Positions 25,161 through 63,787 are shown, numbered from the stretch's first letter. The stretch: DNA of 64,000 bases from Candidatus Cloacimonadales bacterium (GCA_963662275.1 OY759316.1:1024001-1088000); one strand, 5' to 3'. The notes: generated by a model not told the origin, from the sequence alone. Made by a program: numbers and translations.

Positions 25161-25223
25161 TGGAGTTCAAATGCCCAAGCTCATTATCATTTAAAATCAT
25201 ACTTCAAGGGCATGCGGACTTTA
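25161..25223 (+). repeat. 63-nt hairpin module (unrecognised dispersed family)
   Basis: TGGAGTTCAAATGCCC...GGGCATGCGGACTTTA; homologous modules at 28062, 46691, 58026, 60197, 63645. Confidence 0.75.
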
Positions 25224-25276
25224 TAATCGATCTTACATCCCCAGTAGCGAAAACCTGCTTTTATTGATGCGCAATT

Positions 25277-25747
25277 TTATTGTACAAAAAATATACGATT
25301 CAGGTTACCGATGTCAGGCAATGTACCTTTCTTGAATTTGAAAAGTGGATTAACAACGAATTCATATTTCCCAGGTTTTTTGATAAAAACTGTATTTGTT
25401 ACAAACACTTGATCGTTTGGTTGGAGAACAGATATCGTATCCAATTTGGTTGCACTTGCTGTTGAGCTTGATTTCAAAGTATCACTGTAGGAAACAACAT
25501 CAATGACGGCTAGGGCAGTATTTGTAGAACTGGTACGATATTTAATTGCATAGATACCTAAATTGACAATTGTCAGCGAATAAGTGATAGGTTCACCAGC
25601 AAAATATGTTTCCTTCATGGTTTGAGTTGAATCCATAATGTTGCATTTGATTCTTACCAATCCGTTACTGATATCATTTGTAATTGCCGGGAGAATGCTG
25701 GATATCATGCAGGTTAAGGCTATTATAAGTAGATACAGAATACGCAT
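25277..25747 (-). CDS. Hypothetical secreted protein
   Basis: Signal peptide, Ig-like beta pattern, RBS GAGGTG. Confidence 0.6.
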   Translation of the reverse strand: MRILYLLIIALTCMISSILPAITNDISNGLVRIKCNIMDSTQTMKETYFAGEPITYSLTIVNLGIYAIKYRTSSTNTALAVIDVVSYSDTLKSSSTASATKLDTISVLQPNDQVFVTNTVFIKKPGKYEFVVNPLFKFKKGTLPDIGNLNRIFFVQ

Positions 25748-25905
25748 ATCACCACCTCTTTAAAGAAAAAGTAACCCGAATCGTACAGATGTCAATCTTT
25801 CACATGAATGAACGACTATCTAAGTTGTACACTGTACGCTGTACGCTGTTCCCTTCTGCAATTTCTATTGACATGAAAAAGATTATTTCAATATCTAATC
25901 ATTAA

Positions 25906-27909
25906 ATGAAATTTAAAAAACATATATTCTTGGAGGTAACTCTGAAATATCCGATATTACTTCTTTTCATTCTGTTATCCCTAAACTGCTTTGCCCTTGG
26001 TACATTGAAAGTTGAGAGTGTAAAGGCTCTTCCCGAGAACGAACTGCAATTAGACAAATATGATGCTGACGGTAAGCTAGCACCGCTGCTGATGATAAAA
26101 ACAAACCTGGAAAGCATCCAGTTTCAGAATGTGAGCCGTCCCACGAAGCATGCCCCGATCTATGACAAAATGCATGGATACTGGAAATGCTATCTGAATG
26201 TATCACAGCGATCATTGGAAATAGGGGCTCCAGGCTATGAAACTGTCCAAGTCAATCTGCTTAACGACTATCGTATCGATGCGAAGGAAAAGCGATGCTA
26301 TGAACTTGTTCTGTCGAATTTCCCCGAGCATGAAAAGATACCTTTTGCCATCATTAGCGACCCGGCAGATGCAGAGAAATGGGTGGATGGAGAGAAACTG
26401 GGAAGCAGCCAGAATCAACAGATTGCCATTGGAGAGCACCAGTTGGAATTGAGGAAAGATGGATACAAGACCTTGAAAGCCGTTTTGCAAGTGAGTAAGG
26501 ATAATGTGGCAGCGCAATACAAATTAGAACAAGCCGAACCGGTGAAAATCACCATCAAGAGTATTCCGTCAGAAGCACAGATATTCATCGATAATATCCC
26601 TGAAGGAACTACGAATAAGCAGCCTTATAAATATCCGGGAGTCTATCATCTGCGTCTGATCAAAGGCGGTTATGACACAGTGGAAGATACGATTACAGTC
26701 ACTGAAACAGGTCTGAATACATTTAGCTATAACCTTGTCAAAGTTTCAGTGACATTGAACCTAACAGTAATACCTTCCGATGCTATCGTGAATATAGATA
26801 ATCAGCCTTATAATAACACTTCCCTCGATCTTGCACCAGGTACGCATAAACTGGAAGTTGGTAAACCAGGTTACGACACGGAAACGAGACAGATAACTTT
26901 GGAAAAGGGAAAAGACATAAGTTTGAATATCAGCCTAATTCAGCAAATGGGCAAGCTCATGTTTACCGTGGAACCGATGGAGGCTTCTGTCAGCTTGAAT
27001 ACAGGGCAGAAATGGGACGGCTCCAACCACATAGACCTGCCTGTAGGCACTTACACTGTTACTGCCATTCTCAATGGATACATGAAGAAAGAGACGAGTT
27101 TTACAGTTGAAAAAGGGAAAGATACAAAGATTGATCTGAGAATGGTTAGAGGGTCTTCTAGCAATGTAAAAAGCAATGCAAATGCTGATAGAGAGATGGT
27201 TTATGTAGTAGGTGGAACTTTCACAATGGGTGACACAGCCGGTGGTGAAGAGGATGATGAAATACCTATACACCAGGTTACGCTTTCTTCCTTTTCTATT
27301 GGTAAATACGAAGTAACGCAGAAACAGTGGAAAGAAGTAATGGGCGATAACCCATCCAATTTCAAAAGTGATAATTTGCCAGTGGAACAAGTATCCTGGA
27401 ATGACTGTGTGGAATTCTGTAACAAGCTGAGTCAAAAAGAAGGCTTAACACCCAGTTACAATGGAAACGGAGCAGATATTTCCTGCGAATGGAATGCTAA
27501 CGGCTACAGATTACCCACGGAAGCAGAATGGGAATATGCAGCCAAGGGTGGTAACCAGAGCGGTAGTTATAACTATTCTGGAAGTGACGATCTTGGAAGT
27601 GTTGCTTGGTTTGCTGATAATGCCTCAAGCACAACCCACCAGGTTGGTCAGAAACAGGCAAACGAACTTGGCTTATACGACATGAGCGGAAATGTGTGGG
27701 AATGGTGTTGGGATTGGTATGATGAAAGCTACTACAACAAGAACCATGCATCCAACCCTCGAGGAGCAGATATGGGCTCGTACAGAGTCTTACGGGGCGG
27801 GTCTTGGGGCTTCAGTGTCAACCTCTGCCGTATTTCCTACCGCAGCGGCAGCGGTCCAGACGGTAGGTTCAGCTACAACGGCTTTCGTCTTGTTCGGAAT
27901 CCTCAATGA
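25906..27909 (+). CDS. PEGA-repeat protein with C-terminal FGE-sulfatase (SUMF1/CLec-fold) domain
   Basis: Multiple PEGA repeats; FTMG, KYEVTQ, YRLPTEAEWEYAA, GLYDMSGNVWEW, RGGSW...GFRL. Confidence 0.9.
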   Translation: MKFKKHIFLEVTLKYPILLLFILLSLNCFALGTLKVESVKALPENELQLDKYDADGKLAPLLMIKTNLESIQFQNVSRPTKHAPIYDKMHGYWKCYLNVSQRSLEIGAPGYETVQVNLLNDYRIDAKEKRCYELVLSNFPEHEKIPFAIISDPADAEKWVDGEKLGSSQNQQIAIGEHQLELRKDGYKTLKAVLQVSKDNVAAQYKLEQAEPVKITIKSIPSEAQIFIDNIPEGTTNKQPYKYPGVYHLRLIKGGYDTVEDTITVTETGLNTFSYNLVKVSVTLNLTVIPSDAIVNIDNQPYNNTSLDLAPGTHKLEVGKPGYDTETRQITLEKGKDISLNISLIQQMGKLMFTVEPMEASVSLNTGQKWDGSNHIDLPVGTYTVTAILNGYMKKETSFTVEKGKDTKIDLRMVRGSSSNVKSNANADREMVYVVGGTFTMGDTAGGEEDDEIPIHQVTLSSFSIGKYEVTQKQWKEVMGDNPSNFKSDNLPVEQVSWNDCVEFCNKLSQKEGLTPSYNGNGADISCEWNANGYRLPTEAEWEYAAKGGNQSGSYNYSGSDDLGSVAWFADNASSTTHQVGQKQANELGLYDMSGNVWEWCWDWYDESYYNKNHASNPRGADMGSYRVLRGGSWGFSVNLCRISYRSGSGPDGRFSYNGFRLVRNPQ

Positions 27910-28061
27910 TTTTCCATTTCTTTTACTCTATTCCCCTTTTTAGCCGGAACGCTGTTTTCAAACGGCTATGCAGTTTCAACTGGCAAAATGCAAGAAATAG
28001 CTTAATAGATTAAGCGTTCCAATCAAAGCAGGTTACCCCTATCGAGGATAAAAGGTCGAGA

Positions 28062-28203
28062 TGAAGTCCACATTTCCTTGTAGTTGAGTATTCGTAAAAG
28101 ATTCGAAGGAAATATGAACTCCATACTCTTGGCTTTCATGTAAAGTCCGCATGCCCTTTTGGTCAGGTATTATTGGTAATTAGGCTAGGGCATTTTGACT
28201 CCA
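28062..28203 (-). repeat. Two tandem hairpin modules (62 + 63 nt)
   Basis: TGAAGTCCACATTTCCT...AGGAAATATGAACTCCA (28062-28123); TAAAGTCCGCATGCCCT...AGGGCATTTTGACTCCA (28141-28203). Confidence 0.8.
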
Positions 28204-31647: not shown

Positions 31648-31750
31648 AAATTTCCTGATAAACTGTGAAACTTGATTTGCATTAAAGAAGAAAATGATCC
31701 AGTGTCAAGGTGGAAGTAATGCGAAGTGGTCAGTATCCCCTTAATTTATA

Positions 31751-31818
31751 CCAGTTTCAATCCTGTTTCATTCCTGTTTCATTCCTGTTTGATTCCTGTT
31801 TCGTTAAACAGGATTGAG
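31751..31818. repeat. 11-mer tandem repeats (CCTGTTTCATT x5) with inverted partner
   Basis: Five units followed by AAACAGGATTGA. Confidence 0.75.
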
Positions 31819-31921: not shown

Positions 31922-31997
31922 TGGTGGGTGCAGAGGGACTTGAACCCCCGACATCTTGCTTGTAAGGCAAGCGCTCTCCCAACTGAGCTATGCACCC
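31922..31997 (-). tRNA. tRNA-Val(TAC)
   Basis: Cloverleaf, anticodon TAC, GTTCAA T-loop, encoded CCA. Confidence 0.95.
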
Positions 31998-32016
31998 ACT
32001 TATGTGGTAAAAAAAT

Positions 32017-32096
<80 letters not shown>

Positions 32097-32147
32097 TTCC
32101 ATGAAATGCAAGACTTGAAACCTCCGCCAGACTGTCAAGTAAAACAA

Positions 32148-32222
<75 letters not shown>

Positions 32223-32248
32223 TCTTAAAAAAAGAACTTCATATGGTA

Positions 32249-32335
32249 TGGTACCAGAGACCGGACTTGAACCGGTACGGGCTTGCACCCGAGGGATTTT
32301 AAGTCCCTTGTGTCTACCAATTTCACCACTCCGGC
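32249..32335 (-). tRNA. tRNA-Leu(TAA)
   Basis: Long variable arm, anticodon TAA, CCA. Confidence 0.93.
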
Positions 32336-32351
32336 ACGCACATTAAATATT

Positions 32352-32425
32352 TGGAGGCGACACCCGGATTTGAACCGGGGATGAGGATTTTGCAGACCCT
32401 TGCCTTACCACTTGGCGATGTCGCC
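32352..32425 (-). tRNA. tRNA-Cys(GCA)
   Basis: GGCGACA acceptor, anticodon GCA, U73, CCA. Confidence 0.95.
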
Positions 32426-32426
32426 T

Positions 32427-32501
<75 letters not shown>

Positions 32502-38838: not shown

Positions 38839-38843
38839 ATTAT

Positions 38844-46690: not shown

Positions 46691-46855
46691 TGGAATTCAT
46701 ATGCCCAATTTCTTTATCATTGAATATCTTGCTAAAGGGGCATGTGGACTTCATAATCGAATTTTTGCTACCGGTGATGAAATTCCGTATCATGAAGTCC
46801 ACTTGTCCTTTTAATCATATGTTCATTTGAATATAGCTAGGACAAATGAACTCCA
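46691..46855. repeat. Two hairpin modules in opposite orientation (63 + 63 nt)
   Basis: 46691-46753 (TGGAATTC...GGACTTCA) and 46793-46855 (TGAAGTCC...GAACTCCA); extra half-sites nearby. Confidence 0.75.
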
Positions 46856-52793: not shown

Positions 52794-52853
52794 AATTACC
52801 CTCCTTATTATGAAATATATTTATTCTGCAAATACAATTTTGTCAATATTAAA

Positions 52854-52975: not shown

Positions 52976-53413
52976 ATGGCATTACTAATTAATCTTGACA
53001 TGGATATAAAGTTAGGTAAATTTTAAATAAAAAATCAAAGAAATGAAAATTCCTTCTGTTGGAAGGAAAGGACGCAAGAATGAAGAAAGATGCCATCGGT
53101 TCAAAGCAAAAACCAACTGCTGCCATTGTTAAATTGCCTGATACTGAAGATTCTCTATCAAAGAGAAGATTTCCCATCATAGCCATAGGTGCTTCTGCCG
53201 GAGGATTGGCTGCGTATGAAACTTTCTTTTCCGCCATGCCATCCACAACTGTCAGCGGTATGTCCTTTATTATTGTGCAACATCTTTCACCCGACTACAA
53301 AAGCATTCTTTCAGAATTGATTGGAAGATATACAAAGATGTCGGTGTATGAAGTAACAGATGGTTTAATTGTAAAGCCAAACAGTGCCTACATCATTCCT
53401 CCCAATAAAGATA

Positions 53414-55274
53414 GAGACTGTTCATGAAGTTATTCATAATATTCAATAAGTTAGAAAGTAGCAAGTTGAAAAAAGTGGTCGAAACGGTCATAATTTAACA
53501 TACCTTCCAGAATTGACAGATAAGCTCTGCTAAGGACACCAAATCACAAGTTAAGCTTTTTGACTAAAATTGAAAAACACGCGATTATAAGTAATGTTTC
53601 GAAGCCGTTTCTGACTAAATGTGTAGTTAAAATCATATAAAATAGTTCTTTACAAGTTTTTTGCTATAGCTTCAATGGCATTTGTTACCTGGTAACAAAA
53701 GGGAGGATATTATGACAAAAAAACACTCCAATTCAAGAAGCGGTAAGTGTTAGTCATGAAAGTAACCAATACCATGTAAGTATTAACGTACCATTTTCAT
53801 TCACTTTGCCTGAGACAACATCAAACCACAAGTTCTTAATAGCGTTTCTACGCTTATTAGTAGGAATAGGCGGAGACAACCTCCTTACACTTCAGCAAAT
53901 AGCTGATCTGTTTAACTACGCAGACCGCAGGAATGTACATAATTTCTGGCAAGAGTTTGAGCAGCATGGTCATGATATCCTGGCATATTTAAGCCGGAAA
54001 GTTGACCTGCTGGAGTGTATTCCTCAGATCGAGAATTTTGTTATCAATAACCTGCTTTTACCTTTAAATGTCATGTATCAGGAGTTCATCAGCCATCATG
54101 ATTTTAAAATGTCCTATACCACTTTCTGCAAATATGCTTCTCAGGTCAATTCTCTGTCTGTAGTTAAGCAAGCTCAGAAGCTTCTTCTGAAAAAGACAGT
54201 AGGCGGTGATGCTGTACATCTGCTGAAACTGCTTGCCGGTCAGCAGAATACACCTGTTATCTGTGACAGACTCCTGGAACAAATGAAGACTGCTAAAGGC
54301 AATACATCCCATAGAACCGCCGATGCAAAGCCGTTCCATAGTCTGGAACGCAAGAACCTGTGTCTGCTGGTACATTACCTGGTTGGAAGCGGTATGAACT
54401 TCGAGACGATAGCTTTGCTGCTCAACACCTGTAAAGCTACAGTCTCAAATCTCTGGCATGAAATCGCTGACCTGCAGAGCCTGATTCTGAACTCAATCGG
54501 TAAGTGGAGCGGAAAGATCAGCATTGATGAGAAATATGTGAAGATCAAAGGTATTCCGTACTATGTCATCAGTATTGTTGATTTTGTGACTCACATCCCT
54601 CTGTTTTGTGAGTTGTATCCTGACACAAAGAAAGAATCATTCGAAGCATGTTTCAGAACCTTCAGACAGCTCTACAGGAAAGATCCAACCCTGATTGTCA
54701 GTGATGGCAGTAAATCGTTAGCAGTTGCAAGAAAAACAGTGTTTCCAAAAGTCCATTACCAACTCTGTAAGTTCCATAAGATACGAAATCTCTTCAAAAG
54801 AATCAGTCAATGTCATCTCCCTGAAGACAGGGACAAGTTCTTTAAGAAGAGGATTATGAAAGCTTTCCGAAGAGAAACGGCGGGCGGAAGGAAAAAGGGT
54901 ATCGCAAGCCTGACAGCTATTACTCCCCCAACCGCCGCCGAATACATCAAAAGCAATATCATTAGTGATTGGAGACACCTCAGCAAAGGTTTGACTTCCA
55001 ATGTCTCTGAACGCTGGAACCGCAAAATCAAGAAGGTGACATCCGGTAGATTTGGACTAAAATCTGAAGAAACCACCCGCAACCTTGTGTTTTCGCTTTG
55101 GTTCAAAGAACTGGTCGATAAAGGTCAACCAATCATGCGTCAGGAATCACTTTTAGCAAGTTTAAATATCTCCCGCATATGTCAAGAAAATGTGGATTGG
55201 TCGCACTTAGACCACTTTTTCTCTGTCACTACCAATAAGGCTGCGTAAAATGGAGGTTAATTTTGAACAGTCTC
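53414..55274 (+). mobile_element. Insertion sequence, IS256/Mutator-like (1861 bp)
   Basis: 11-bp terminal IR GAGACTGTTCA/TGAACAGTCTC; 8-bp target duplication TAAAGATA at 53406-53413 and 55275-55282. Confidence 0.92.
53806..55248 (+). CDS. DDE transposase (IS256/Mutator-like motifs)
   Basis: SIDEKY, VSDG, QLCKFH, TSNVSERWN; likely true start is ATG 53712, out of frame by one base. Confidence 0.85.
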   Translation: MPETTSNHKFLIAFLRLLVGIGGDNLLTLQQIADLFNYADRRNVHNFWQEFEQHGHDILAYLSRKVDLLECIPQIENFVINNLLLPLNVMYQEFISHHDFKMSYTTFCKYASQVNSLSVVKQAQKLLLKKTVGGDAVHLLKLLAGQQNTPVICDRLLEQMKTAKGNTSHRTADAKPFHSLERKNLCLLVHYLVGSGMNFETIALLLNTCKATVSNLWHEIADLQSLILNSIGKWSGKISIDEKYVKIKGIPYYVISIVDFVTHIPLFCELYPDTKKESFEACFRTFRQLYRKDPTLIVSDGSKSLAVARKTVFPKVHYQLCKFHKIRNLFKRISQCHLPEDRDKFFKKRIMKAFRRETAGGRKKGIASLTAITPPTAAEYIKSNIISDWRHLSKGLTSNVSERWNRKIKKVTSGRFGLKSEETTRNLVFSLWFKELVDKGQPIMRQESLLASLNISRICQENVDWSHLDHFFSVTTNKAA

Positions 55275-55281
55275 TAAAGAT

Positions 55282-57960
55282 ATGGCATTTGTAGAAGGGA
55301 AACTTTTTTTGACACCACCGATAGCCCAGCGTGGCTATAGGCTGCCTATCGACTTCTTTTTCCGTTCCCTGGCAGAAGATCAGCAGCATCTTGCCATCTG
55401 CATCATATTTTCAGGTACGGGAAGCGACGGCACACTTGGAGCCAGAGCCATCAAGGGTGAGGGGGGATTGGTCATAGCTCAGAGACCGGACACAACAGAG
55501 TATGATGGTATGCCTCAAAGCATCATTTCCAATGGGTTGGCAGATTATGTATTAGCTCCGGGAGAAATGCCTGCTGCTTTGATCTCCTATACTTCACATA
55601 CGCTAGTTTTTAAGCCTGATATAGAATCGTCTTCTGCAAAACAGCAGAATTATTTGGATAAAATATTTAACTTAGTTCGTACTCGTACAGGGCATGATTT
55701 TACGCAGTATAAACCAAAAACAATTATGAGAAGACTCGAAAGGCGAATGTCTATCAATCAAATCGAAAAGATAGAAGATTATCTCGCGTATCTCCAGACT
55801 AACATTTTGGAAGTTAATCTTTTATTTCATGATTTTTTGATAGGAGTCACCAGCTTCTTTAGAGATCCATCTTCATTTGAAGCACTGCAGGAAAAGGGGT
55901 TACCAGTTATCTTTGCTGATAAATCGGACGGATCAGTGATTCGAGTCTGGGTTCCCGGATGTTCCACAGGAGAAGAAGCTTATTCTCTTGCCATGATTTT
56001 ACAGGAGTATATTGAAAAACTTGATAAGGATTATACGATTCAGATTTTTGCCACTGATCTTGATGCGGTTGCCATTGCTCATGCGAGGGCAGGTATTTAT
56101 TCTATGAATATAGCAGCAGATATCACATCCGAAAGGATGTCCCGCTATTTTGTATTAAGCGCGGATAAACATACTTTTCAAATCCGAAAGACAATCAGGG
56201 AATTGATTGTGTTTTCAGAACACGACATCATCAAAGACCCTCCCTTTTCAAGGATGGATATAATTTCCTGCCGTAATCTCCTGATTTATCTGGATACAGA
56301 CCTGCAGAAGAAGATAATTCCTATGATGCATAATTCTCTGAATGAGAAAGGTATACTATTCTTAGGTTCCTCAGAATCCATAGGAGAACACCATGACTTA
56401 TTTAATTCCATAATTAAGAATCATAAGATATACCAGCGCTTGGGTTTGCCAACCAATCGCAATTACAGCGAAAGAAATCTGGCCAATCCGGAGTTGTTTG
56501 GTTTTAGTCCGATCCTAAAACCCATAGGTGGTGAAATAAAGAAAATATCATTTAAGGAAATTGCTGATTCTGCGCTATTGAAAAAATACGCCCCGGCAGC
56601 AGTAATTATCAATTCCAAAGGCGAAGCTTTATATTTTCACGGTAGAACTGGAAAGTACCTGGAACCTGCACCCGGAAATGCAGAAATCATGCTGGTTAAG
56701 ATGGCACGCGAAGGTTTGCATACGAACCTGGTAAATGCAATCCATAAAGCCACGGTTACAAAAACTTCTGTAATTTACCCGAATGTGAGAGTAAAAACCA
56801 ATGGTGATCATACAACCATCAATCTGTCTGTAGAACCGATAGCACTATTAGCGAACCAGAAGGCAAATTTTGATAGTGATTTGTATATCGTGATCTTTGA
56901 GGTAGCACCCTTTCCCGATTTTGAAGAAAAGAAGCCAATTCGAGGCAAAAAATCTATTACTCAGAATGATGAATTACTGAAGAGAATCACTGCTCTTGAA
57001 TTGGATAATCGCACTAAAGAAGAATATATTCAAACCTATAATGAGGAAATGGAAGGCTCTAACGAAGAATTGAAATCCATCAATGAAGAGCTGCAATCTG
57101 TGAATGAGGAAATGCAGTCGACCAATGAGGAACTGGAAACATCGCGGGAGGAATTGCAATCCGTTAATGAAGAACTTGCCACCGTAAATGCTGAATTACA
57201 GAGCAAAATCCAAAATCTTTCCAAGACTGAAAACGATTTAAGCAATCTTCTATCCAGTACCGGAATTGGTACGATCTTTGTCGATTTACAGCAGATAATC
57301 CAACGTTATACTCCTTCTGCTTGTAAAATAATCAAGCTGATTGATCGGGATATCGGACGTCCGTTGAGCGATATTATCACCAACCTGATCAATTATGACA
57401 ATTTATCTAATGACATTCGATCTGTTTTAGATACTTTGATTCCCTTCGAAAAGGAAGTCCAGGCTAATAACAAAGATTGGTATTTACTGCGTATTATTCC
57501 TTATCGGACTTTGGAAAATCTAATCATGGGTGCTGTAATTACTTTTACTGATTTCACGACAATCAGGAGAGCAACGGAAATTATTCTGCACGAACATGAA
57601 ACGCTCAAGAGGTTGACTGCTGTTGTATTGGATGCCTCAGATGCGATTACTGTACTTGATTTATCCGGTAAAATCCTAGCTTGGAATCCCGCTGCTGTAA
57701 AGATGTACGGCTACACTGAAACGGAAGCCCTGGGGATGAAAATATATGATATCATACCGGAATCAAAGAAAAGTTCAGCTAAAATCGCTTTTACGACTAT
57801 CCTTCATACAAAAGTTAAACCTTTTCCTGCGCAACGAATCTGTAAAGATGGTAGTATCATACAGGTTTTGGTAACGGGAACTGCGTTAATTAATGCGGAT
57901 GGTGCCGTTTATGCCATATCAACAACTGAAAAGGAAGAAAGCAACCTGATAAATCTGTAG
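55282..57960 (+). CDS. C-terminal remainder of CheB/CheR-PAS protein (open frame)
   Basis: 892-aa ORF: partial CheB, complete CheR methyltransferase, coiled coil, PAS domains. Confidence 0.8.
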   Translation: MAFVEGKLFLTPPIAQRGYRLPIDFFFRSLAEDQQHLAICIIFSGTGSDGTLGARAIKGEGGLVIAQRPDTTEYDGMPQSIISNGLADYVLAPGEMPAALISYTSHTLVFKPDIESSSAKQQNYLDKIFNLVRTRTGHDFTQYKPKTIMRRLERRMSINQIEKIEDYLAYLQTNILEVNLLFHDFLIGVTSFFRDPSSFEALQEKGLPVIFADKSDGSVIRVWVPGCSTGEEAYSLAMILQEYIEKLDKDYTIQIFATDLDAVAIAHARAGIYSMNIAADITSERMSRYFVLSADKHTFQIRKTIRELIVFSEHDIIKDPPFSRMDIISCRNLLIYLDTDLQKKIIPMMHNSLNEKGILFLGSSESIGEHHDLFNSIIKNHKIYQRLGLPTNRNYSERNLANPELFGFSPILKPIGGEIKKISFKEIADSALLKKYAPAAVIINSKGEALYFHGRTGKYLEPAPGNAEIMLVKMAREGLHTNLVNAIHKATVTKTSVIYPNVRVKTNGDHTTINLSVEPIALLANQKANFDSDLYIVIFEVAPFPDFEEKKPIRGKKSITQNDELLKRITALELDNRTKEEYIQTYNEEMEGSNEELKSINEELQSVNEEMQSTNEELETSREELQSVNEELATVNAELQSKIQNLSKTENDLSNLLSSTGIGTIFVDLQQIIQRYTPSACKIIKLIDRDIGRPLSDIITNLINYDNLSNDIRSVLDTLIPFEKEVQANNKDWYLLRIIPYRTLENLIMGAVITFTDFTTIRRATEIILHEHETLKRLTAVVLDASDAITVLDLSGKILAWNPAAVKMYGYTETEALGMKIYDIIPESKKSSAKIAFTTILHTKVKPFPAQRICKDGSIIQVLVTGTALINADGAVYAISTTEKEESNLINL

Positions 57961-58025
57961 TACGTTGTAACATAGATTGGTAATCTGTTGTAACTGACAA
58001 TGGTATTGTCAGATTCTAAAGCTCT

Positions 58026-58182
58026 TGGAGTTCAACTTGCCAAGATGACTTTGAAATGATCTGAATGTAATAGTCAAGTTGGATTTCAAGCCTGAATTGA
58101 GTAATAAGTTACGTTGGGTTTGAAGTCCAAATTTCCTACTAGCTGGGTAGTCACAAAAGATACGAAGGAAATTTGAACTCCA
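58026..58182. repeat. Two hairpin modules in opposite orientation (63 + 62 nt)
   Basis: 58026-58088 (TGGAGTTCAACTTG...CAAGTTGGATTTCA) and 58121-58182 (TGAAGTCC...GAACTCCA). Confidence 0.75.
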
Positions 58183-58213
58183 AATGATGCAAAGGACGAA
58201 CAAAGGAGTTACC

Positions 58214-59902
58214 ATGAACTCTTGCGAATCTGATCTGGAAAAGGTAAAAGAACTTCGAGAGCAAGCTGAGCAATTAGCTAATTCAAAGCTGGATACTTTA
58301 GATTTTAACTCTTTATCCAAAGAGGAAATTCAGAAACAACTTCATGAATTGAATGTTCATCAGATAGAGCTAAAACTCCAAAATGAGGAATTGCAAACTA
58401 CCCAGGAAGAATTGGAACTTTCGCGTGCAAAGTACTTTGAATTGTATAATAATGCTCCAGTTGGTTACATCACTCTAAATGATAAAGAAATGATCGTGGA
58501 AGCTAATCTACTATTCTGCAATTTATTGGCATATCCGAGAAAAGATATCATCAACAGGCTTTTTTCGAATCATATCATTCCAGATGACCAGGATATATAT
58601 TATAAATTCACAAAGCAATTCAAGAAATCAGATTCAAAGGAGTCGTGTGAACTGAGGTTAGTAACAAAAAATCTTAAGCAGTTTTATGCCAGTATTGCTG
58701 CTACCAGGGAATATATAGAAGGAACAGATGAATTTATCTATTATTTTGTAGTCACCGATATTTCTGAAAGAAAGTTGCAGGAATTAATGAAAAATGCTCA
58801 GTATCGTCTTCTTCAAACCCTTATCGATAGTCCAGAGGACATTATATTCTCTCTCGATACAAATTACCGTTATACTGCTTTCAACAACAATCATAAAGAA
58901 GAAATGAGGAAGATTTGGAAAGCAGATATTTCTGTTGGTGATAGGATTTTAGAATACATGTCTATACCTGAATTCGTTGATCAAGCTAAACAAAGCATGG
59001 ATAGGACTCTCCAAGGTGAACGGTTTACGGAAGTGATTCATCAGTCTGATCAGAATAAATACTACGAAATGGATTGGAATCCGGTTTATGGCGATGATTC
59101 GAAAATAGTCGGTTTGACAGCTTTTGTTAGAGATATTACGACAAGAAAAATGGCTGAGGAGATCATCAAAAACAACAATGTATTCTTAGAACAGAAAGTG
59201 AAGGAAAGAACCTCTGAACTGGAGTTATCGAAAAATGAGCTTGAAGCATTCTCTGCCTCGGTTGCTCACGATCTTACAAGTCCTTTGCGTTCAATAGATG
59301 GTTTTTCACAAATCTTGTTAGAAGATTACGATATGGTATTAGATGATGCAGCAAAACTTCTGTTAAAGAGAATCAGGAAAAGCGCTATCAAAATGGATGA
59401 GATTATTACATCTCTACTTCATTTAGCCCATATAACGCAAAGTGAATTATATCAAGCTCCAATAGAAATGAAGAGATTAGTTTCGAATGTATGGGAAGAA
59501 ATTCAACGCGAAACCAAAGGTGCAACATCTTTGAATCTTACTGAACTTCCGGATGCAATAGGAGACATCAACCTAGTCAAAATTGTATGGGAAAATCTTC
59601 TTTCGAATGCACTCAAATTTACACTAAAAATGCCACTTCGAATGATCACGATAACCGGAGTTGTAAAAGAACAATTTGCGGAGTATTGTGTCGCTGATAC
59701 AGGTGCCGGATTTGATATGGAGTATTACAGTCAATTGTTCGAAACATTTCATCGGTTGCATAGTGACCAGGAATTTGCAGGTAACGGTATAGGCTTATCC
59801 ATTGTTCAAAGAATCGTGAATAAACATGGCGGGAAGATTTGGGCAACCAGCGAAGTGAATAAAGGTGCGAAGTTTTATTTTACACTACCCGTGATTTCGT
59901 AG
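58214..59902 (+). CDS. Cytoplasmic PAS histidine kinase (CheBR-associated type)
   Basis: HELNVHQIELKLQNEEL, two PAS, VAHDLTSPL, NALKF, GIGLS; RBS AGGAG before ATG 58214. Confidence 0.92.
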   Translation: MNSCESDLEKVKELREQAEQLANSKLDTLDFNSLSKEEIQKQLHELNVHQIELKLQNEELQTTQEELELSRAKYFELYNNAPVGYITLNDKEMIVEANLLFCNLLAYPRKDIINRLFSNHIIPDDQDIYYKFTKQFKKSDSKESCELRLVTKNLKQFYASIAATREYIEGTDEFIYYFVVTDISERKLQELMKNAQYRLLQTLIDSPEDIIFSLDTNYRYTAFNNNHKEEMRKIWKADISVGDRILEYMSIPEFVDQAKQSMDRTLQGERFTEVIHQSDQNKYYEMDWNPVYGDDSKIVGLTAFVRDITTRKMAEEIIKNNNVFLEQKVKERTSELELSKNELEAFSASVAHDLTSPLRSIDGFSQILLEDYDMVLDDAAKLLLKRIRKSAIKMDEIITSLLHLAHITQSELYQAPIEMKRLVSNVWEEIQRETKGATSLNLTELPDAIGDINLVKIVWENLLSNALKFTLKMPLRMITITGVVKEQFAEYCVADTGAGFDMEYYSQLFETFHRLHSDQEFAGNGIGLSIVQRIVNKHGGKIWATSEVNKGAKFYFTLPVIS

Positions 59903-60011
59903 AGACACCCTACATGGGTGTCTCATCCGGTTGGGGTAGATATGAGACGCCCAGGTTGGTCGTCTCTACGCTGGCGGGTGGAAATGAGACGCCCAGGTTG
60001 GTCGTCTCTAC
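59899..60011. repeat. REP triplet, GAGACGCCC family
   Basis: GTAGAGACACCCTACATGGGTGTCTC plus two inverted GAGACGCCCAGGTTGGTCGTCTCTAC. Confidence 0.85.
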
Positions 60012-60196
60012 GCTGGTGGAGGGAAACAAGACAGGATGCTTGTATTGACCCATTCCTCTCTTTGGATAAAGAGGTGGGTGTAGGGGCTTGCGGTAGTATG
60101 CCCTTCTTCGGAGAGTTTGAAAGCTGATTGTGAACTAATCGGGTTTGAACTTCCCTGAAAACAGGTTTTCGCTACCGAGAATGAAAATGTCGATTT

Positions 60197-60338
60197 TGAA
60201 GTCCGAATTTCCTACTACTTGAGAAGTCGTAATAGATTCGATGGAAATTTGAACTCCAAACTCTTAGCTTTCATGTAAAGTCCATTTGCCCTTTTAGTCA
60301 GGTATACAATGATAGTTTTTTAGGGCAATTGAACTCCA
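60197..60338 (-). repeat. Two tandem hairpin modules (62 + 63 nt)
   Basis: 60197-60258 and 60276-60338; same layout as 28062-28203. Confidence 0.8.
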
Positions 60339-60386
60339 AAGATCACCAGAACCCAAGAATGCAATCCTATGTAACAGGAGGAAGAA

Positions 60387-61607
60387 ATGAATTTTAAGAA
60401 AGCTGATTTAACAAAGGCAAGAAATCTGCTCAATCGTGCGGAGAAATTGGCAAAGAATAACGTAGCTATGGACGATATCGATATTGATTCTTTGTCTCAA
60501 GAGGATATCAATAAGGTTGTTCACGATTTGCAGGTGCACCAGATAGAGCTGGAACTGCAGAATGAGGAATTGCGGAATATTCAGTCAGAACTTGAAACAT
60601 CCCGCGCGATGTTTTTTGAACTATATAATATGGCTCCAGTGGGTTATATGACTTTAGATGATAATGGCTTTATCATGGAAGTTAACCTGACTTTCTGTAA
60701 TCTACTAGGCTACCAGCGCCAGGATATTATTCGAAAGCCCATTACTAATTATATCTTTTCCGATGACCAGGACATCTTTTATAAACACAAAAAGCAATTT
60801 CAGGATTTAGGCAAAATAGCTACATGTAAATTGAGAATGCTAGCCCACAATGGCAAAAAGTTTTATGTATGTATGGAAGCTACAAGAATCTATGACAAAG
60901 AAATAGATGAATTCGTCTACAATTGCGTTATCCGTGATATTTCAGAGGAAAAACATCATGAACAAATGCTGAATAAACAGTTTATTCTCATGCAGGCATT
61001 AATCAACAGTCCTAACGATATGATTTACTCTCTTGATAATGAATATCGTTATACTGCTTTTAACAAAAATCACAAAGAAGAAATGAGAAAAGACTGGCAA
61101 GCAGAGATTGAAATCGGTGAGAGTATTTTAGACTATATAAACATACCGGAATATGCAGAAAAAACAAAGCAAAGTATAGACAAGGTTCTGAAAGGAGTGA
61201 GATTCATCGAAGTTGTGCACCTGGTTAATCAGAACGTCTATTATGAGATGGACTGGAAACCTATTATTGATGGTACTTTAAAGATCGTCGGCGTAACCAG
61301 TATTGTTCGTGATATCACAGCACATAAAATTGCTGAAGAAATTATCCAAAATAATAATGTGGAAATTGAACGAAAAGTCAAAGACAGAACAATCGCATTA
61401 GAGCTTTCGACCAATGAGCTAAATACTTTCTCTTCCAATGTTGCTCACAATTTTACGAAGCCATTGCAACGAATTGACGAAATTTCTCTTATCTTACTTG
61501 AGGATGATAACGGTGTCTTAGATGCAGAAGACAAACTTTTAGTAGATGAAATCAGGGAAAATACCAATATCATGAAAAAACTTCTCATGACTCTTCCACA
61601 TTCGTAA
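60387..61607 (+). CDS. PAS-PAS-HisKA protein lacking the HATPase domain (paralog of 58214-59902)
   Basis: HDLQVHQIELELQNEEL, YRYTAFNKNHKEEMRK, VAHNFTKPL; no N/G boxes. Confidence 0.8.
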   Translation: MNFKKADLTKARNLLNRAEKLAKNNVAMDDIDIDSLSQEDINKVVHDLQVHQIELELQNEELRNIQSELETSRAMFFELYNMAPVGYMTLDDNGFIMEVNLTFCNLLGYQRQDIIRKPITNYIFSDDQDIFYKHKKQFQDLGKIATCKLRMLAHNGKKFYVCMEATRIYDKEIDEFVYNCVIRDISEEKHHEQMLNKQFILMQALINSPNDMIYSLDNEYRYTAFNKNHKEEMRKDWQAEIEIGESILDYINIPEYAEKTKQSIDKVLKGVRFIEVVHLVNQNVYYEMDWKPIIDGTLKIVGVTSIVRDITAHKIAEEIIQNNNVEIERKVKDRTIALELSTNELNTFSSNVAHNFTKPLQRIDEISLILLEDDNGVLDAEDKLLVDEIRENTNIMKKLLMTLPHS

Positions 61608-61675
61608 GACATCCACGTTGGGGTTCTCTACGATTTGTTTTTTTTGAATGAGACGCCTATGTTGGGCATCTTTAC
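61604..61675. repeat. Degenerate REP pair, GAGACGCCC family
   Basis: GTAAGACATCCACGTTGGGGTTCTCTAC and GAGACGCCTATGTTGGGCATCTTTAC. Confidence 0.6.
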
Positions 61676-61742
61676 ATGAAATAAAAATAATTAATCCAAT
61701 CCTTGACATCCAGATTATCATATTGATAAATATAACCTAGCC

Positions 61743-62264
61743 ATGGAGGATTTCATGATTGAAATTGTAAAAGGTGATATTACGAAGATGGTAATGGATG
61801 TTATCGTCAATGCTGCAAATTCATCTTTGCGTGGTGGAGGTGGTGTGGACGGAGCTATTCACAGGGTTGCAGGTCCATTATTGCTGGAAGAATGCCTGAA
61901 AATTGGACATTGCCCGGTCGGTGAAGCATGTTTAACACCCGGATTCAAATTACCTGCTCCACACGTGATTCACACTGTTGGTCCTGTTTGGCGTGATGGC
62001 TCTCATGGAGAAGATGACTTGCTTGCATCCTGCTATCGGAACAGTCTGAAAATCGCAAGTGAGCATGGTTTTGAGACAATTGCCTACCCGGCAATATCCA
62101 CAGGTGCTTTCGGTTTTCCGAAAACCCGTGCTGCCCAGATTGCTATTCGTGAGATAAAAAATCATACTTTACAGAGCAATTTCCCCAAATTCGTATATGT
62201 TGTCTGTTTTGATGAAGAAACATACAAGATTTATGATGAATTACTTTTGGATATCGAGCTATAG
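61743..62264 (+). CDS. Macro-domain protein (O-acetyl-ADP-ribose deacetylase, YmdB-like)
   Basis: GDIT, IVNAANSSLRGGGGVDGAIH, IHTVGP, PAISTGAFGFP. Confidence 0.93.
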   Translation: MEDFMIEIVKGDITKMVMDVIVNAANSSLRGGGGVDGAIHRVAGPLLLEECLKIGHCPVGEACLTPGFKLPAPHVIHTVGPVWRDGSHGEDDLLASCYRNSLKIASEHGFETIAYPAISTGAFGFPKTRAAQIAIREIKNHTLQSNFPKFVYVVCFDEETYKIYDELLLDIEL

Positions 62265-62338
62265 AATTTTTTACAGTTTCTATCTGATGAGAACAGTTAC
62301 ATATTTTCTCTTGATTTATTCGATTCGAAGGAGTTATT

Positions 62339-62974
62339 TTGCATAATATTAATCCTGATTTGCTTGAGTTCTTCTCCAAAAATTACAAACCTGGTATTAT
62401 AGGGATGGTCGGAACAAAAGATAAGATTGGGAATTCGATTCGTCGTGGGCAAAGTCGCATGATGAATGGAAAACCATCTCGATGGTCTCATTGTTTTATT
62501 ATGGGTAGGAAAAGGCTGGATTTGCGAAATTCCGTGGAGACACCTGTAGAAAGCATTTATATTTTTGAAAGCGATATTAAACTAAATATCGAACATATGC
62601 AGATTCGTAATGGAGCGCAGGAGAATTGGCTGGGGAAGTGGTGCGATGTAAAAGTAGAATATGCAGCGATTATCGACTTTGGGCTGAATTTATTCCAGGA
62701 GCAATTGGTTTTAGCAAGTGCTTTACAAATGATAGACGATGAAGTCATGTATCCTATCGGCGGTTTATTTCATACTTGGTTGGCAATCCAAATGCACAGG
62801 TTCGGTTTTAAAAACCCGCTTGCCGGATATCATGCCATGTTTTGCAGTGCTTATGCAAGACGCTGTTATCAGTCTGCCGGCGCAGATTTTCTCAGTTCAG
62901 AAGTCGATCTATTTAATACATCTCCTGAACATATTGCTCAGGCTGGCAAGAGTAAGATGATTCTTTGGAAGTAA
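62339..62974 (+). CDS. Permuted papain-like (YiiX/YebB-like) amidase-fold protein
   Basis: PG-I-I start motif, SRWSHC (His), late FCSAY (Cys), SPEHI; His-before-Cys order of permuted NlpC/P60. Confidence 0.6.
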   Translation: MHNINPDLLEFFSKNYKPGIIGMVGTKDKIGNSIRRGQSRMMNGKPSRWSHCFIMGRKRLDLRNSVETPVESIYIFESDIKLNIEHMQIRNGAQENWLGKWCDVKVEYAAIIDFGLNLFQEQLVLASALQMIDDEVMYPIGGLFHTWLAIQMHRFGFKNPLAGYHAMFCSAYARRCYQSAGADFLSSEVDLFNTSPEHIAQAGKSKMILWK

Positions 62975-62995
62975 CAATCATACCCGGAGGGCTTA

Positions 62996-63307
62996 ATGCT
63001 AGTCTTTCTAAGTGATCTGCATTTTGAAGATGCCACTGCTGGAAAACACAATATTAATTCAAAAGCCTTTGAAGGTTTTACTGATGATTTGAAAAAACTC
63101 AGCAAGAATGCAAAACATATCCATATCGTACTGCTTGGAGATATCTTCGATCTGAATCGTACAACAGCCTGGTTTGAAAAAGGTGCTGCTAAGCCTTGGA
63201 CATCCGATGATTTGTCCAATCCTGAAGTAGGAGTTGTTGCTGAAAAGATACTGGAGAATATCATTGATAAGAACAAAGACTCATTATCAATCTTAAATTT
63301 TACATAA
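62996..63307 (+). pseudogene. Truncated calcineurin-like metallophosphoesterase
   Basis: FLSDLH and LLGDIFD motifs present, ORF stops before the GNHD motif. Confidence 0.65.
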
Positions 63308-63447
63308 TTTCGAATTATTTTGAAATTCTCCCTCTATTTAGTCCTTAAATAAATTCCCTACAATCACTCTCTCTCCTAAAAACGCACTTTAAACCCACCT
63401 TTAGAATTAACATAAAACAATCGAAACACAAAAGAAACATAACCCAA

Positions 63448-63520
63448 ACAGCACCGCACATAGGAGCGGTTGTCCTGCGGTTGTGCTGCGGTGGTTCTGC
63501 GGTTCTGCTGCAGTTCTTTT
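63448..63520. repeat. 11-mer tandem repeats (GCGGTTGTGCT x5) with inverted partner
   Basis: Five units 63466-63520 preceded by ACAGCACCGCA. Confidence 0.7.
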
Positions 63521-63644
63521 TCAAGAGGATTACAAGATTCCGATTGCCTAACAAATTGTATATTATCAAGTGAGGTTAGTCTATTGTCGCTAATGCTGAA
63601 CTTCCCTGAAAAGTATTTTCGCTACTGATGATGAAAGCTCGAGA

Positions 63645-63787
63645 TGAAGTCCACATTTCCTAGTATTTGGGTATTCGTAAAAGATTCGAAGGAAATATGA
63701 ACTCCATGCTCTTGGTTTTCATGTAAAGTCCGCGATTCCTACAAATGATTAGGAGAATAGTTATACTAGAAGGAATTTTGAACTCCA
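63645..63787 (-). repeat. Two tandem hairpin modules (62 + 64 nt)
   Basis: 63645-63706 and 63724-63787; first module nearly identical to 28062-28123. Confidence 0.8.

What the first reader, a model, noticed from the sequence alone, without database searches (positions are those of the whole stretch)
25161..63787. Unrecognised dispersed family of 11 fixed-length (62-64 nt) hairpin modules with strand-specific G-T pairing
Seen: modules TGGAGTTC-N-stem...stem-GGACTTYA occur at 25161, 28062, 28141, 46691, 46793, 58026, 58121, 60197, 60276, 63645 and 63724. All are intergenic and 62-64 nt long. They appear singly, as tandem pairs with a 17-nt linker, or as opposed pairs. The ~16-bp arms covary (TTTCCT/AGGAAA, TGCCCT/AGGGCA, TGTCCT/AGGACA, AACTTG/CAAGTT) while the ~28-30 nt interior varies. 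The conserved arm mismatches are G-T on one strand (GGAGTTC pairing with GGACTTC) and A-C on the other, so only one strand folds well. There is no GTAG foot and no attC core. Inference: a structured RNA or ssDNA element under selection for fold and length, e.g. a processed small-RNA repeat, nuclease/recombinase substrate or new MITE, whose protein partner is not obvious in this window.
Basis: partly seen in the sequence, partly recalled or inferred. Interest (0 to 1): 0.8.

Follow-up and report, generated by a model that had tools for sequence, protein, structure and literature searches.

The report
Long-looped REP hairpins, transposase missing here
The 11 hairpins belong to a genome-wide family of about 150 unusually long repeated palindromes of the REP type, whose partner transposase sits among identical hairpins in related bacteria but is missing from this genome.

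Summary
All 11 modules are at the stated coordinates, are 62-64 nt long and lie between genes.

They belong to a family of about 150 copies in this closed 4.38-Mb Candidatus Cloacimonadota genome.

Each unit has four parts:
- a constant 8-bp outer stem, TGGAGTTC/GGACTTCA, with two G·T pairs
- a small mid-stem bubble
- a 6-7 bp inner stem that covaries through about 19 variants
- a loop of about 30 nt

No Rfam family matches.

In five related genomes, a REP-associated tyrosine transposase (RAYT, a Y1 HUH enzyme) is bordered by arrays of the same hairpins. Its closest solved relative is E. coli TnpA-REP. So this is a REP/BIME-type single-strand DNA element, not a small RNA.

It departs from described REPs in three ways: no GTAG foot, a very large loop, and a G·T-marked foot. 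This genome has no cognate RAYT, so its copies are orphans.

Cloacimonadota-type phage contigs also carry copies, all in sense orientation.

Verdict: a new variant of a known kind, of moderate interest.

The parts
25161..25223 (+). Single hairpin unit (ATGCCC/GGGCAT inner stem). A diverged tail follows at about 25224-25262.
   Evidence: 69.7 bits
28062..28123 (-). Hairpin unit (ATTTCC/GGAAAT type), the proximal member of a same-strand pair. A diverged tail lies at about 28013-28061.
   Evidence: 76.9 bits
28124..28140 (-). 17-nt linker module (consensus CATGAAAGCYAAGAGT on the unit strand).
28141..28203 (-). Hairpin unit (ATGCCC/GGGCAT type). Its outer stem is slightly degenerate (TGGAGTCA).
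   Evidence: 62.8 bits
46691..46753 (+). Hairpin unit, left member of a convergent (tail-to-tail) pair. A truncated remnant lies at 46665-46690.
   Evidence: 71.7 bits
46754..46792 (.). 39-nt spacer of the convergent pair. It resembles the proximal part of the tail of the right-hand unit.
46793..46855 (-). Hairpin unit (TTGTCC/GGACAA inner stem), right member of the convergent pair. A remnant lies at about 46856-46892.
   Evidence: 75.6 bits
58026..58088 (+). Hairpin unit (ACTTGCC.../...CAAGTT inner stem), left member of a convergent pair.
   Evidence: 60.4 bits
58121..58182 (-). Hairpin unit (ATTTCC/GGAAAT), right member of a convergent pair. It ends 1 nt before the start of ORF 58184-59902.
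   Evidence: 72.9 bits
60140..60196 (-). Tail module. On the unit strand it reads AAATCGACATTTTCATTCTCGGTAGCGAAAACCTGTTTTCAGGGAAGTTC.
60197..60258 (-). Hairpin unit (ATTTCC/GGAAAT).
   Evidence: 70.7 bits
60259..60275 (-). 17-nt linker module.
60276..60338 (-). Hairpin unit (TTGCCC/GGGCAA).
   Evidence: 75.9 bits
63590..63644 (-). Tail module (diverged copy).
63645..63706 (-). Hairpin unit (ATTTCC/GGAAAT). With its linker it is 91% identical to the 28062 copy over 112 nt.
   Evidence: 76.2 bits
63707..63723 (-). 17-nt linker module.
63724..63787 (-). Hairpin unit (AATTCC/GGAAT), the weakest fold of the 11.
   Evidence: 54.0 bits

Best explanation
The modules are repetitive extragenic palindromes of the REP/BIME kind. 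They are non-coding hairpin elements handled as single-stranded DNA by a REP-associated tyrosine transposase (RAYT, a Y1 HUH enzyme).

Shown:
- Each unit is a stem-bubble-stem hairpin with a constant outer stem (TGGAGTTC/GGACTTCA, two G·T pairs), a covarying inner stem and a loop of about 30 nt.
- Units combine with a 17-nt linker and a tail of about 52 nt into mosaics.
- In five related genomes the same hairpins border a RAYT gene of one clade.
- This closed genome has about 150 units and no RAYT of that clade.

Inferred:
- The RAYT binds the folded TGGAGTTC strand. It reads the constant foot, and the G·T pairs and the bubble make the complementary strand a poor substrate. E. coli TnpA-REP likewise needs the REP's mismatched bulge and does not bind the inverse REP.
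- The RAYT cuts at or near the two feet and copies or exchanges the hairpin cassette.
- In this genome the enzyme was lost or never arrived with the elements. The copies are now orphans, kept by inertia or by a host-level use.
For: Family size and form:
- R1 gives 148 hits in the genome.
- Iterated nhmmer gives 162 hits, of which 152 are anchored full units of 61-65 nt apart from one 50-nt copy.
- 138 of 152 units are intergenic. 9 of those 138 (6.5%) lie in divergent spacers, which make up 22.7% of intergenic length; 32 of 138 lie in convergent spacers, which make up 15.7%.

Stem statistics on 139 distinct units:
- Pair 3 is G·T in 98% and pair 7 is T·G in 93%.
- Pairs 11-16 are 92-100% Watson-Crick; pairs 11-14 show 3-4 pair types.
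- Pairs 9-10 are mismatched in about 40%.

Arrangement: of 50 neighbouring pairs under 400 nt apart, 23 are convergent, 25 are same-strand and 2 are divergent.

RAYT link: 7 RAYT loci in 5 genomes carry the hairpins, 6 of them on both sides.
- G015: L112/L116
- G001: L118
- G040: L117
- G072: L131; L132 has hairpins on one side only
- G087: L130 and L134, both with an internal stop

The protein:
- The HUH motif and the YI-x-x-NPV tyrosine are invariant.
- Pfam PF01797 scores above its cut-off.
- NCBIfam 'REP-associated tyrosine transposase' matches at E 4e-17 and 7e-15.
- The best PDB match is 4er8 TnpArep, E 6e-8.

Other members of the RAYT clade carry other hairpins, several with GAGT(T/C)C...GACT(T/C)C feet and G·T pairs at the same places (read by eye).

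Precedents in print:
- Correcting the REP bulge abolishes binding, and the inverse REP is not bound (PMC3479197, passages read).
- tnpA-REP was lost in some E. coli strains (PMC3333891, abstract).
Against: - This genome has no cognate RAYT. The best tblastn hits are 24-34% identical over about 95-140 aa and fall on the 11 other RAYT-like genes, each of which has its own different flanking hairpins. The nearest Y1 gene lies 1853 nt from a unit.
- Three further hairpin-bearing MAGs (G101, G105, G083) show no RAYT of the clade at E <= 1e-20. They are fragmented into 90-340 contigs.
- Defining features of described REPs are not met. There is no GTAG, GTGG or CGTC foot, the loop is 28-30 nt against 2-5 nt, and the NCBIfam score is below its curated cut-off (62 and 55 against 80 bits).
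- Movement is not shown. The empty-site comparisons were inconclusive.
- There is no replichore bias of the kind known for IS608: 83 against 69.
- On two phage lineages all copies are sense-oriented just after stop codons, which would also suit a role in RNA.
Confidence: 0.77

Rival explanations
1. A structured RNA element: a processed small RNA, or a 3'-UTR hairpin that stabilises or terminates transcripts. It would act only when the TGGAGTTC strand is transcribed.
For: - The G·U strand is the more stable in 133 of 151 units, mean -18.7 against -14.4 kcal/mol.
- There is compensatory change in the inner stem.
- On the phage contigs G162 and G164 all copies found (6 of 6 and 4 of 4) lie on the strand of the surrounding genes. 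Several start 6-16 nt after a stop codon.
Against: - In this genome single units in co-directional spacers are 22 sense and 23 antisense, and pairs are mostly convergent.
- No Rfam match at the gathering score or at E <= 10.
- The hairpins border a DNA transposase gene in five genomes.
- No RNA data could be laid, so expression is untested.
- A secondary effect on RNA, as reported for E. coli REPs, remains compatible with the main explanation.
Confidence: 0.08
2. A miniature inverted-repeat transposable element moved as double-stranded DNA by a DDE transposase that recognises the TGGAGTTC...GAACTCCA ends as terminal inverted repeats.
For: - The two ends form an imperfect 8-9 bp inverted repeat.
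- The copies are dispersed and intergenic.
- The genome holds active-looking IS elements: IS21-like at 6142-8434 and Mutator-like at 53806-55248.
Against: - The flank consensus shows no target-site duplication.
- TGGAGTTC outside the units occurs about as often as chance predicts: 264 in all against about 150 expected plus about 150 units.
- No transposase-like family recurs among the genes lying between nearby units; this was judged by all-against-all BLAST only, with no Pfam scan.
- Covarying inner arms are not expected of protein-read terminal repeats.
- 63 bp is too short to synapse as duplex DNA (established knowledge of DNA stiffness).
- A RAYT, not a DDE enzyme, is the flanked gene in relatives.
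Confidence: 0.05
3. An IS200/IS605-type arrangement. The RAYT-like gene plus its hairpins is an ordinary mobile insertion sequence, and the dispersed hairpins are its palindrome-associated derivatives rather than domesticated REPs.
For: - G072 has two nearly identical copies of the flanked gene and G087 has two broken ones.
- The family is patchy within one bacterial family, 29 of 69 genomes in f3.
- Copies ride on phage contigs.
Against: - The gene is flanked by arrays of alternating hairpin types, not by one left and one right end.
- Copy numbers of the gene are 0-2 against tens to 150 hairpins.
- The protein's best family and structure matches are RAYT/TnpA-REP.
- The line between the two kinds is one of degree, so this is a refinement rather than a true rival.
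Confidence: 0.07
4. Fragments of a decayed multi-copy coding gene. The major subfamily reads as an open frame of about 45 codons starting at the ATG in the linker.
For: In the commonest subfamily, the frame from the linker's ATG through the hairpin and tail is open (my reading of the consensus).
Against: - The ATTTCC subfamily has stop codons in that frame, for example the units at 60197 and 63645 (my reading).
- Same-strand spacing is 79 nt for these pairs, not a multiple of three.
- The compensatory changes preserve pairing, not codons.
Confidence: 0.01

Closest known systems
REP/BIME sequences with their RAYT (TnpA-REP), the 'REPtron' of E. coli (Ton-Hoang et al. 2012, PMC3333891, abstract read; Messing et al. 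2012, PMC3479197, passages read)
   Same: - High-copy intergenic hairpins.
- Imperfect stem with a mid-stem mismatch.
- Several hairpin types joined by fixed linkers into mosaics, often in inverted pairs.
- A Y1 HUH gene bordered by arrays of the same hairpins (seen here in relatives).
- The enzyme gene can be lost while the repeats stay.
   Different: - No GTAG foot; instead a constant 8-bp G·T-bearing outer stem.
- The unit is 62-66 nt with a 28-30 nt loop, against about 32 nt with a 2-nt loop.
- AT-rich rather than GC-rich stems.
- The RAYT clade scores below NCBIfam's cut-off.
- The host is an uncultured Cloacimonadota.
- No biochemistry exists for this family.
REPINs of Pseudomonas (Bertels and Rainey 2011, PMC3116915, search listing and abstract start only)
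   Same: Pairs of units in inverted orientation with a short spacer are a common form: 23 of 50 neighbouring pairs here, and the main form in the relatives' loci I looked at.
   Different: - The two members of a pair are different hairpin types, each folding on its own, so the pair is not one long hairpin.
- Same-strand pairs and singles with a tail are equally common in this genome.
REP classes in the survey of Y1 HUH endonucleases (Quentin et al. 2018, PMC6006769, passages read)
   Same: The 'long REP' class is a stem-bulge-stem, and REP sizes up to 65 nt are quoted. Each RAYT subclass has its own REP style, and several REP families may share a genome.
   Different: That survey's search rules require GTAG or GTGG within 2 nt of the foot, a loop of 2-5 nt and GC-rich stems. 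This family would not have been found by them. The word 'Cloacimon' does not occur in that paper.
BOX elements of Streptococcus pneumoniae (recalled, no call)
   Same: Modular build: a head, a variable number of a repeated middle module, and a tail.
   Different: BOX modules are not individually hairpins with a conserved foot, and no RAYT is linked to them. This is a resemblance of layout only.
Integron attC sites (recalled, no call)
   Same: A folded single strand is the substrate, structure is conserved over sequence, strand choice is set by imperfections in the stem, and lengths are similar.
   Different: - The ends do not match the attC core sites as I recall them; no pattern search was run.
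- No cassette array: units sit singly or in pairs all over the genome in both orientations.
- The flanked gene is a Y1 HUH enzyme, not an integrase.

Membership tests
REP/BIME-RAYT system | Short palindromic unit repeated many times, almost always between genes | tested here: met
   148 R1 hits. 152 anchored units, of which 138 are intergenic by crude ORF calls.
REP/BIME-RAYT system | Units of more than one type joined by short fixed linkers into mosaics or inverted pairs (BIME/REPIN) | tested here: met
   Of 50 neighbouring pairs, 23 are convergent, 25 same-strand and 2 divergent. The 17-nt linker and the tail of about 52 nt are conserved.
REP/BIME-RAYT system | A RAYT gene bordered by the same units, in this genome | tested here: not met
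   None of the 15 PF01797 hits is adjacent to a unit; the nearest is 1853 nt away. tblastn with three cognate RAYTs finds only distant paralogues. The site orthologous to G001's cassette is 137 nt without a gene or a unit.
REP/BIME-RAYT system | A RAYT gene bordered by the same units, in relatives | tested here: met
   7 loci in 5 of the 8 hairpin-rich relatives examined (G001, G015, G040, G072, G087), 6 of them flanked on both sides. G101, G105 and G083 gave no gene at E <= 1e-20.
REP/BIME-RAYT system | Conserved GTAG/GTGG (or CGTC) tetranucleotide at the foot | tested here: not met
   The 5' flank consensus is AAG-A-n-TT followed by TGGAGTTC. No GTAG appears on either strand of the foot.
REP/BIME-RAYT system | Size 20-40 nt (up to 65 nt quoted), loop of 2-5 nt, GC-rich stem | tested here: not met
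   Units are 61-65 nt, with a 16-17 bp stem and a 28-30 nt loop. The stems are AT-rich. The rules are as quoted in PMC6006769.
REP/BIME-RAYT system | Imperfect stem that makes one strand the substrate | tested here: inconclusive
   The structure fits: there are two conserved G·T pairs and a bubble at pairs 9-10, and the top strand is the more stable in 133 of 151 units (RNA parameters) or 112 of 151 (DNA parameters). Binding could not be tested.
REP/BIME-RAYT system | The enzyme has an HUH motif and one catalytic tyrosine and is of the RAYT family | tested here: met
   For the relatives' gene: invariant PNH-x-H and Y-I-x-x-N-P-V. PF01797 is above its cut-off. NF047646 matches at E 4e-17 but below its 80-bit cut-off. 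4er8 TnpArep is the best PDB match, E 6e-8.
REP/BIME-RAYT system | The enzyme cuts and rejoins the units in vitro | not testable with these tools
   This needs protein and oligonucleotides.
Any Rfam RNA family | Covariance-model match at the gathering score | tested here: not met
   The window gives only 6 tRNAs. At E <= 10 over 57900-64000 the only hit on a unit is a chance-level microRNA hit, 16.9 bits against 62.
TIR-type MITE | Target-site duplication and a parent IS with the same termini | tested here: not met
   No duplication appears in the flank consensus. No transposase-like family recurs among genes lying between nearby units, by all-against-all BLAST without a Pfam scan.
Integron attC | Core sites at both ends, cassette array, nearby intI | not tested
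   The ends as read do not look like the attC core sites I recall. Units are dispersed in both orientations. No pattern search for the core sites and no search for an integrase gene was run.

The most novel reading that the evidence does not exclude
This is a separate class of REP. It is recognised not through a single-stranded GTAG guide but through a double-stranded foot, GGAGTYC paired with GRACTTC, whose two G·T wobbles tell the enzyme which strand it holds. It is served by its own RAYT clade across Cloacimonadales. The hairpin alone would be the unit copied or exchanged, dropped into older linker/tail scaffolds: in the main subfamily loops are 92.5% identical, tails 69% and linkers 57%. 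The same cassette rides on Cloacimonadota phages, always in sense orientation behind stop codons. There it may serve the phage as an RNA 3' hairpin, and it may carry the family between bacterial families.
Probability: 0.3. Interest if true: 0.6.

Novelty: new variant of a known kind. Interest (0 to 1): 0.45.

Why it matters
REP/RAYT systems have been defined almost wholly on Proteobacteria, and the published search rules assume a GTAG foot, a tiny loop and GC-rich stems. This family breaks all three rules yet shows the same gene-plus-repeat arrangement. Current surveys therefore probably undercount such systems in uncultured phyla.

The constant G·T-bearing foot gives a simple, testable idea of how a Y1 enzyme picks its strand.

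A closed genome with about 150 well-kept orphan copies, plus copies on phages, offers material for two open questions: whether such repeats persist by host use or by inertia, and how they pass between lineages.

For annotation, it explains much of the repeat-filled spacers of this genome, and why short-read assemblies break at these places.

Tried and rejected
- Rfam, at the gathering score on the whole window and at E <= 10 on 57900-64000: nothing relevant.
- Replichore orientation: 83 against 69, no bias.
- Orientation relative to neighbouring genes, first pass: 43 sense against 54 antisense. A split by distance looked biased. The per-spacer tally shows that this reflects the tail lying on one side and the convergent pairs.
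- Genes lying between nearby units: no transposase-like family recurs, only FGE-sulfatase-type and other ordinary paralogues, judged by all-against-all BLAST with no Pfam scan.
- PF01797 across 61 relatives: present in 46, so presence at family level does not track the hairpins.
- Synteny with the same-genus genome G001: coding DNA is only about 69% identical, so spacers could not be compared in general. The one site that could be compared is the RAYT cassette site.
- Paralogous empty sites within the genome: the best case, 4143880 against 4139490, shares the upstream half-linker and then differs by replacement, not by a clean insertion. Inconclusive.
- Public runs: no RNA holder is listed.
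- Contigs of four DNA runs laid on 44001-64000 break at or beside the units and other repeats. Their joints are cross-repeat joins, so no insertion polymorphism could be read. One contig spans the 46691/46793 pair unchanged.
- blastn of a composite element against phage and plasmid records: no match.
- Search for the RAYT in five phage contigs: none found; the contigs are 39-54% complete.
- phmmer of a single RAYT sequence against PDB: no hit. The profile search did hit.
- Literature: 'Cloacimon' with 'repetitive extragenic' gave 2 papers and 'Cloacimon' with 'RAYT' gave 1, none on this subject by title. 'Cloacimonas', 'repeat', 'palindromic' gave nothing specific. Only the listings were seen.

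Full report
**What is in the window.**
- Read on the strand that starts TGGAGTTC, each is 62-64 nt and folds into a single hairpin.
- TGGAGTTC occurs 11 times against 2.18 expected; 0 of 100 shuffles reach 11.
- Three pairs lie on the same strand, 17 nt apart. Two pairs face each other, 39 and 32 nt apart.
- A covariance model built from the 11 (A1, R1) recovers all 11 in the window and no other unit.
- It prefers the TGGAGTTC strand by about 40 bits where both strands score.
- Rfam has nothing for them.

**Anatomy.** The genome is a single 4.38-Mb contig of 39% G+C.
- R1 finds 148 copies in it (capped at 150 scored).
- Iterated nhmmer finds 162, of which 152 could be anchored at both ends. 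Lengths are 64 nt (68 units), 62 (41), 63 (36), 61 (3), 65 (3) and 50 (1).
- On 139 distinct units:
  - Pairs 1-8 are nearly constant.
  - Pair 3 is G·T in 98% and pair 7 is T·G in 93%.
  - Pairs 9-10 are mismatched in about 40% (A·C, A·A, A·G).
  - Pairs 11-16 are 92-100% Watson-Crick, and pairs 11-14 each occur as three or four different pair types.
- About 19 main inner-stem variants are each self-complementary. One subfamily even changes pair 1 from T-A to C-G on both sides.
- On 68 distinct rows from eight genomes, 92.4% of cells pair, 10 of 17 pairs change on both sides, and no shuffle or slid register comes near. That alignment is fitted to the model and holds five wrong-strand rows.
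- The TGGAGTTC strand is the more stable in 133 of 151 units with RNA parameters and 112 of 151 with DNA parameters.

**The repeat is larger than the hairpin.**
- Upstream lies a 17-nt linker (consensus CATGAAAGCTAAGAGTT). It is often preceded by the last bases of another unit.
- Downstream lies a tail of about 52 nt that ends in GGGAAGTTCAAA.
- A GGA-S-TT-Y-A motif thus recurs four times on one strand. Each neighbouring pair of these motifs could pair with G·T wobbles (my reading of those outputs).
- In the main subfamily (33 copies) the loop is 92.5% identical between copies, the tail 69% and the linker 57%. The subfamily was picked on its 5' arm, so only the loop figure is unbiased.
- I infer that the hairpin was copied more recently than its scaffold, or is kept more strictly.

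**Where the units sit.**
- 138 of 152 are intergenic by crude ORF calls.
- Divergent spacers hold 9 of the 138 although they make up 22.7% of intergenic length. Convergent spacers hold 32 against 15.7%.
- Of 50 neighbouring pairs, 23 are convergent, 25 same-strand and 2 divergent.
- In co-directional spacers, single units are 22 sense and 23 antisense. Doublets are sense-antisense 14, antisense-antisense 6, sense-sense 1 and antisense-sense 0.
- There is no replichore bias: 83 against 69.
- This is the pattern of a tolerated DNA element, not of an RNA that must be made from one strand.

**The organism.** HflX neighbours name Candidatus Cloacimonadota, at no more than 54% identity. Window genes fit that placement: T9SS sorting domains and the [FeFe]-hydrogenase maturation genes.

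**The partner.**
- This genome has 15 Y1-transposase matches.
  - Eleven are RAYT-like genes of about 207-243 aa. Each is bordered by its own, different small palindromes. One lies in the window at 15412-16092.
  - None is next to a TGGAGTTC unit.
- Among 60 relatives, R1 hits five genomes besides this one.
- In G015 a 208-aa gene with MPNHYHFLI and YIHLNPV is bordered on both sides by arrays of the hairpins.
- Searching with that protein and then with R1 on the loci gave the same arrangement elsewhere:
  - G001 (the same genus as this genome)
  - G040
  - G072 (two loci, one with hairpins on one side only)
  - G087 (two loci, both genes with a stop inside)
- That makes seven loci in five of the eight hairpin-rich relatives examined. 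G101, G105 and G083 gave no gene at E <= 1e-20, but they are fragmented MAGs.
- Twelve loci with homologues 37-48% identical, from eleven other genomes plus a second gene in G040, carry no R1 hairpin. The one exception is a weak partial hit.
- By eye, those loci have other hairpin families. Several have GAGT(T/C)C...GACT(T/C)C feet and G·T pairs at the same positions, and some have short interiors.
- The protein:
  - It is above Pfam's cut-off for PF01797.
  - It matches NCBIfam's REP-associated tyrosine transposase below that model's cut-off.
  - As a profile, its best PDB match is E. coli TnpA-REP, 4er8, at E 6e-8, with the HUH and tyrosine motifs aligned.

**This genome lacks that gene.**
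- tblastn with the three cognate proteins finds only the eleven distant paralogues.
- In G001 the cassette lies between a carbon-nitrogen hydrolase gene and hydF. In this genome the same two genes are 137 nt apart, with other palindromes between them and neither gene nor hairpin.
- The assembly is one contig at 99.97% completeness, so the absence is real for the chromosome.
- Loss of tnpA-REP with REPs retained is on record for E. coli strains (PMC3333891, abstract).

**Mechanism.** The arrangement is that of a REPtron.
- For the E. coli enzyme, the hairpin is read together with its mismatched bulge. Correcting the bulge abolishes binding, and the complementary inverse REP is not bound even with GTAG added (PMC3479197, passages).
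- By analogy, I take three features to be what the enzyme reads and what marks the active strand: the constant foot, its two G·T pairs and the bubble at pairs 9-10.
- The covarying inner stem only has to pair. The loop is free within a length.
- These steps are inferred. Nothing here shows cleavage or movement.

**Distribution.**
- In a sample of 151 Cloacimonadota genomes, R1 hits 31: both members of this genome's family, 29 of 69 in family f3, and 0 of 80 in thirteen other families.
- An exact-pattern scan of viral contigs gave 17 loci, and R1 matches all 17, 14 of them strongly (37.7-46.5 bits) and 3 weakly (20.4-28.1 bits).
- Two phage lineages carry six and four copies. Each lineage is seen twice, at 58% G+C, and one carries terminase, portal, protease and tape-measure genes by PHROGs. 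All copies lie on the genes' strand, several just behind stop codons.
- The terminase is up to 66% identical (55-66% for the close group) to genes in 48 of 151 Cloacimonadota genomes at E <= 1e-30, so these are likely Cloacimonadota phages.
- No RAYT was found on the phage fragments.
- The uniform orientation may reflect one-way replication, selection in a tightly packed operon, or a use in RNA. I cannot tell which.

**Comparison and verdict.**
- The kind is known: REP/BIME with RAYT.
- The family fails three features by which REPs are usually recognised: a GTAG-type foot, a 2-5 nt loop and GC-rich stems (rules quoted in PMC6006769).
- Its enzyme is a divergent clade.
- I found no description of it in the held literature (listings only).
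That fits the picture of a genome unusually rich in such systems (I saw that gene and its flanks).
- I rate it a new variant of a known kind, of moderate interest.

Noticed in passing
window 15287-17739: A RAYT-like ORF (15412-16092, 226 aa, MPNHVHVLI motif; NF047646 E 7.8e-21) lies between two 99% identical 106-nt blocks of GTAAAG-footed palindromes. It is followed by 16 head-to-tail copies of a 95-nt unit built from those palindromes. This is a separate REP/RAYT system with a large local array.
   Followed up: partly
whole genome (G000), e.g. 2349936, 1724690, 2410063, 3201643, 806915: Eleven RAYT-like genes of about 207-243 aa sit in one 4.38-Mb genome, each bordered by its own family of small palindromes. 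RAYTs are usually described as one or two per genome.
   Followed up: partly
window 42586-42630, 52168-52975, 59895-60012, 61603-61675: Another hairpin family (GAGACGCCC...GGGCGTCTC with a GTAG or CTAC at one end) is present in 12 copies in the window. It fills spacers together with the units studied here. The spacer 59903-60386 consists almost wholly of repeat modules.
   Followed up: no
window 38836-38873, 39768-39854, 46613-46650: A third small palindrome family, GTAGGGATAGACCCACGTGTCTATCC, has four copies.
   Followed up: no
window 53059-57960: A Mutator/IS256-like transposase gene (53806-55248) lies between the two halves of a CheB methylesterase domain. ORF 53059-53427 matches profile positions 1-76, and ORF 55282-57960 matches positions 89-174 and continues as CheR-PAS. 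In four DNA runs this stretch has about 20-50 times the depth of its surroundings, so the IS is highly multi-copy.
   Followed up: no
window 5665-5818: A run of 7-nt-period repeats (ACAGCGG/ACAGGGT-like units), of the kind better known from filamentous cyanobacteria.
   Followed up: no
window 31925-32501: A cluster of six tRNA genes on the minus strand, two of them identical over 75 nt. An 11-nt tandem repeat lies just upstream at 31745-31799.
   Followed up: no
L154 (G162) 3555-14863; L156 (G164): Tailed-phage contigs of 58% G+C carry 4-6 units of this hairpin family, all in sense orientation behind stop codons. In some copies the interior is replaced by longer unrelated sequence of 78-96 nt.
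   Followed up: partly
G000 3028561-3028697 against L118 1200-2411: The same gene pair (CN-hydrolase, HydF) holds a 1.2-kb RAYT-plus-hairpin cassette in the sister species and only 137 nt of other palindromes here. This is a clean presence/absence difference for a whole REPtron.
   Followed up: yes
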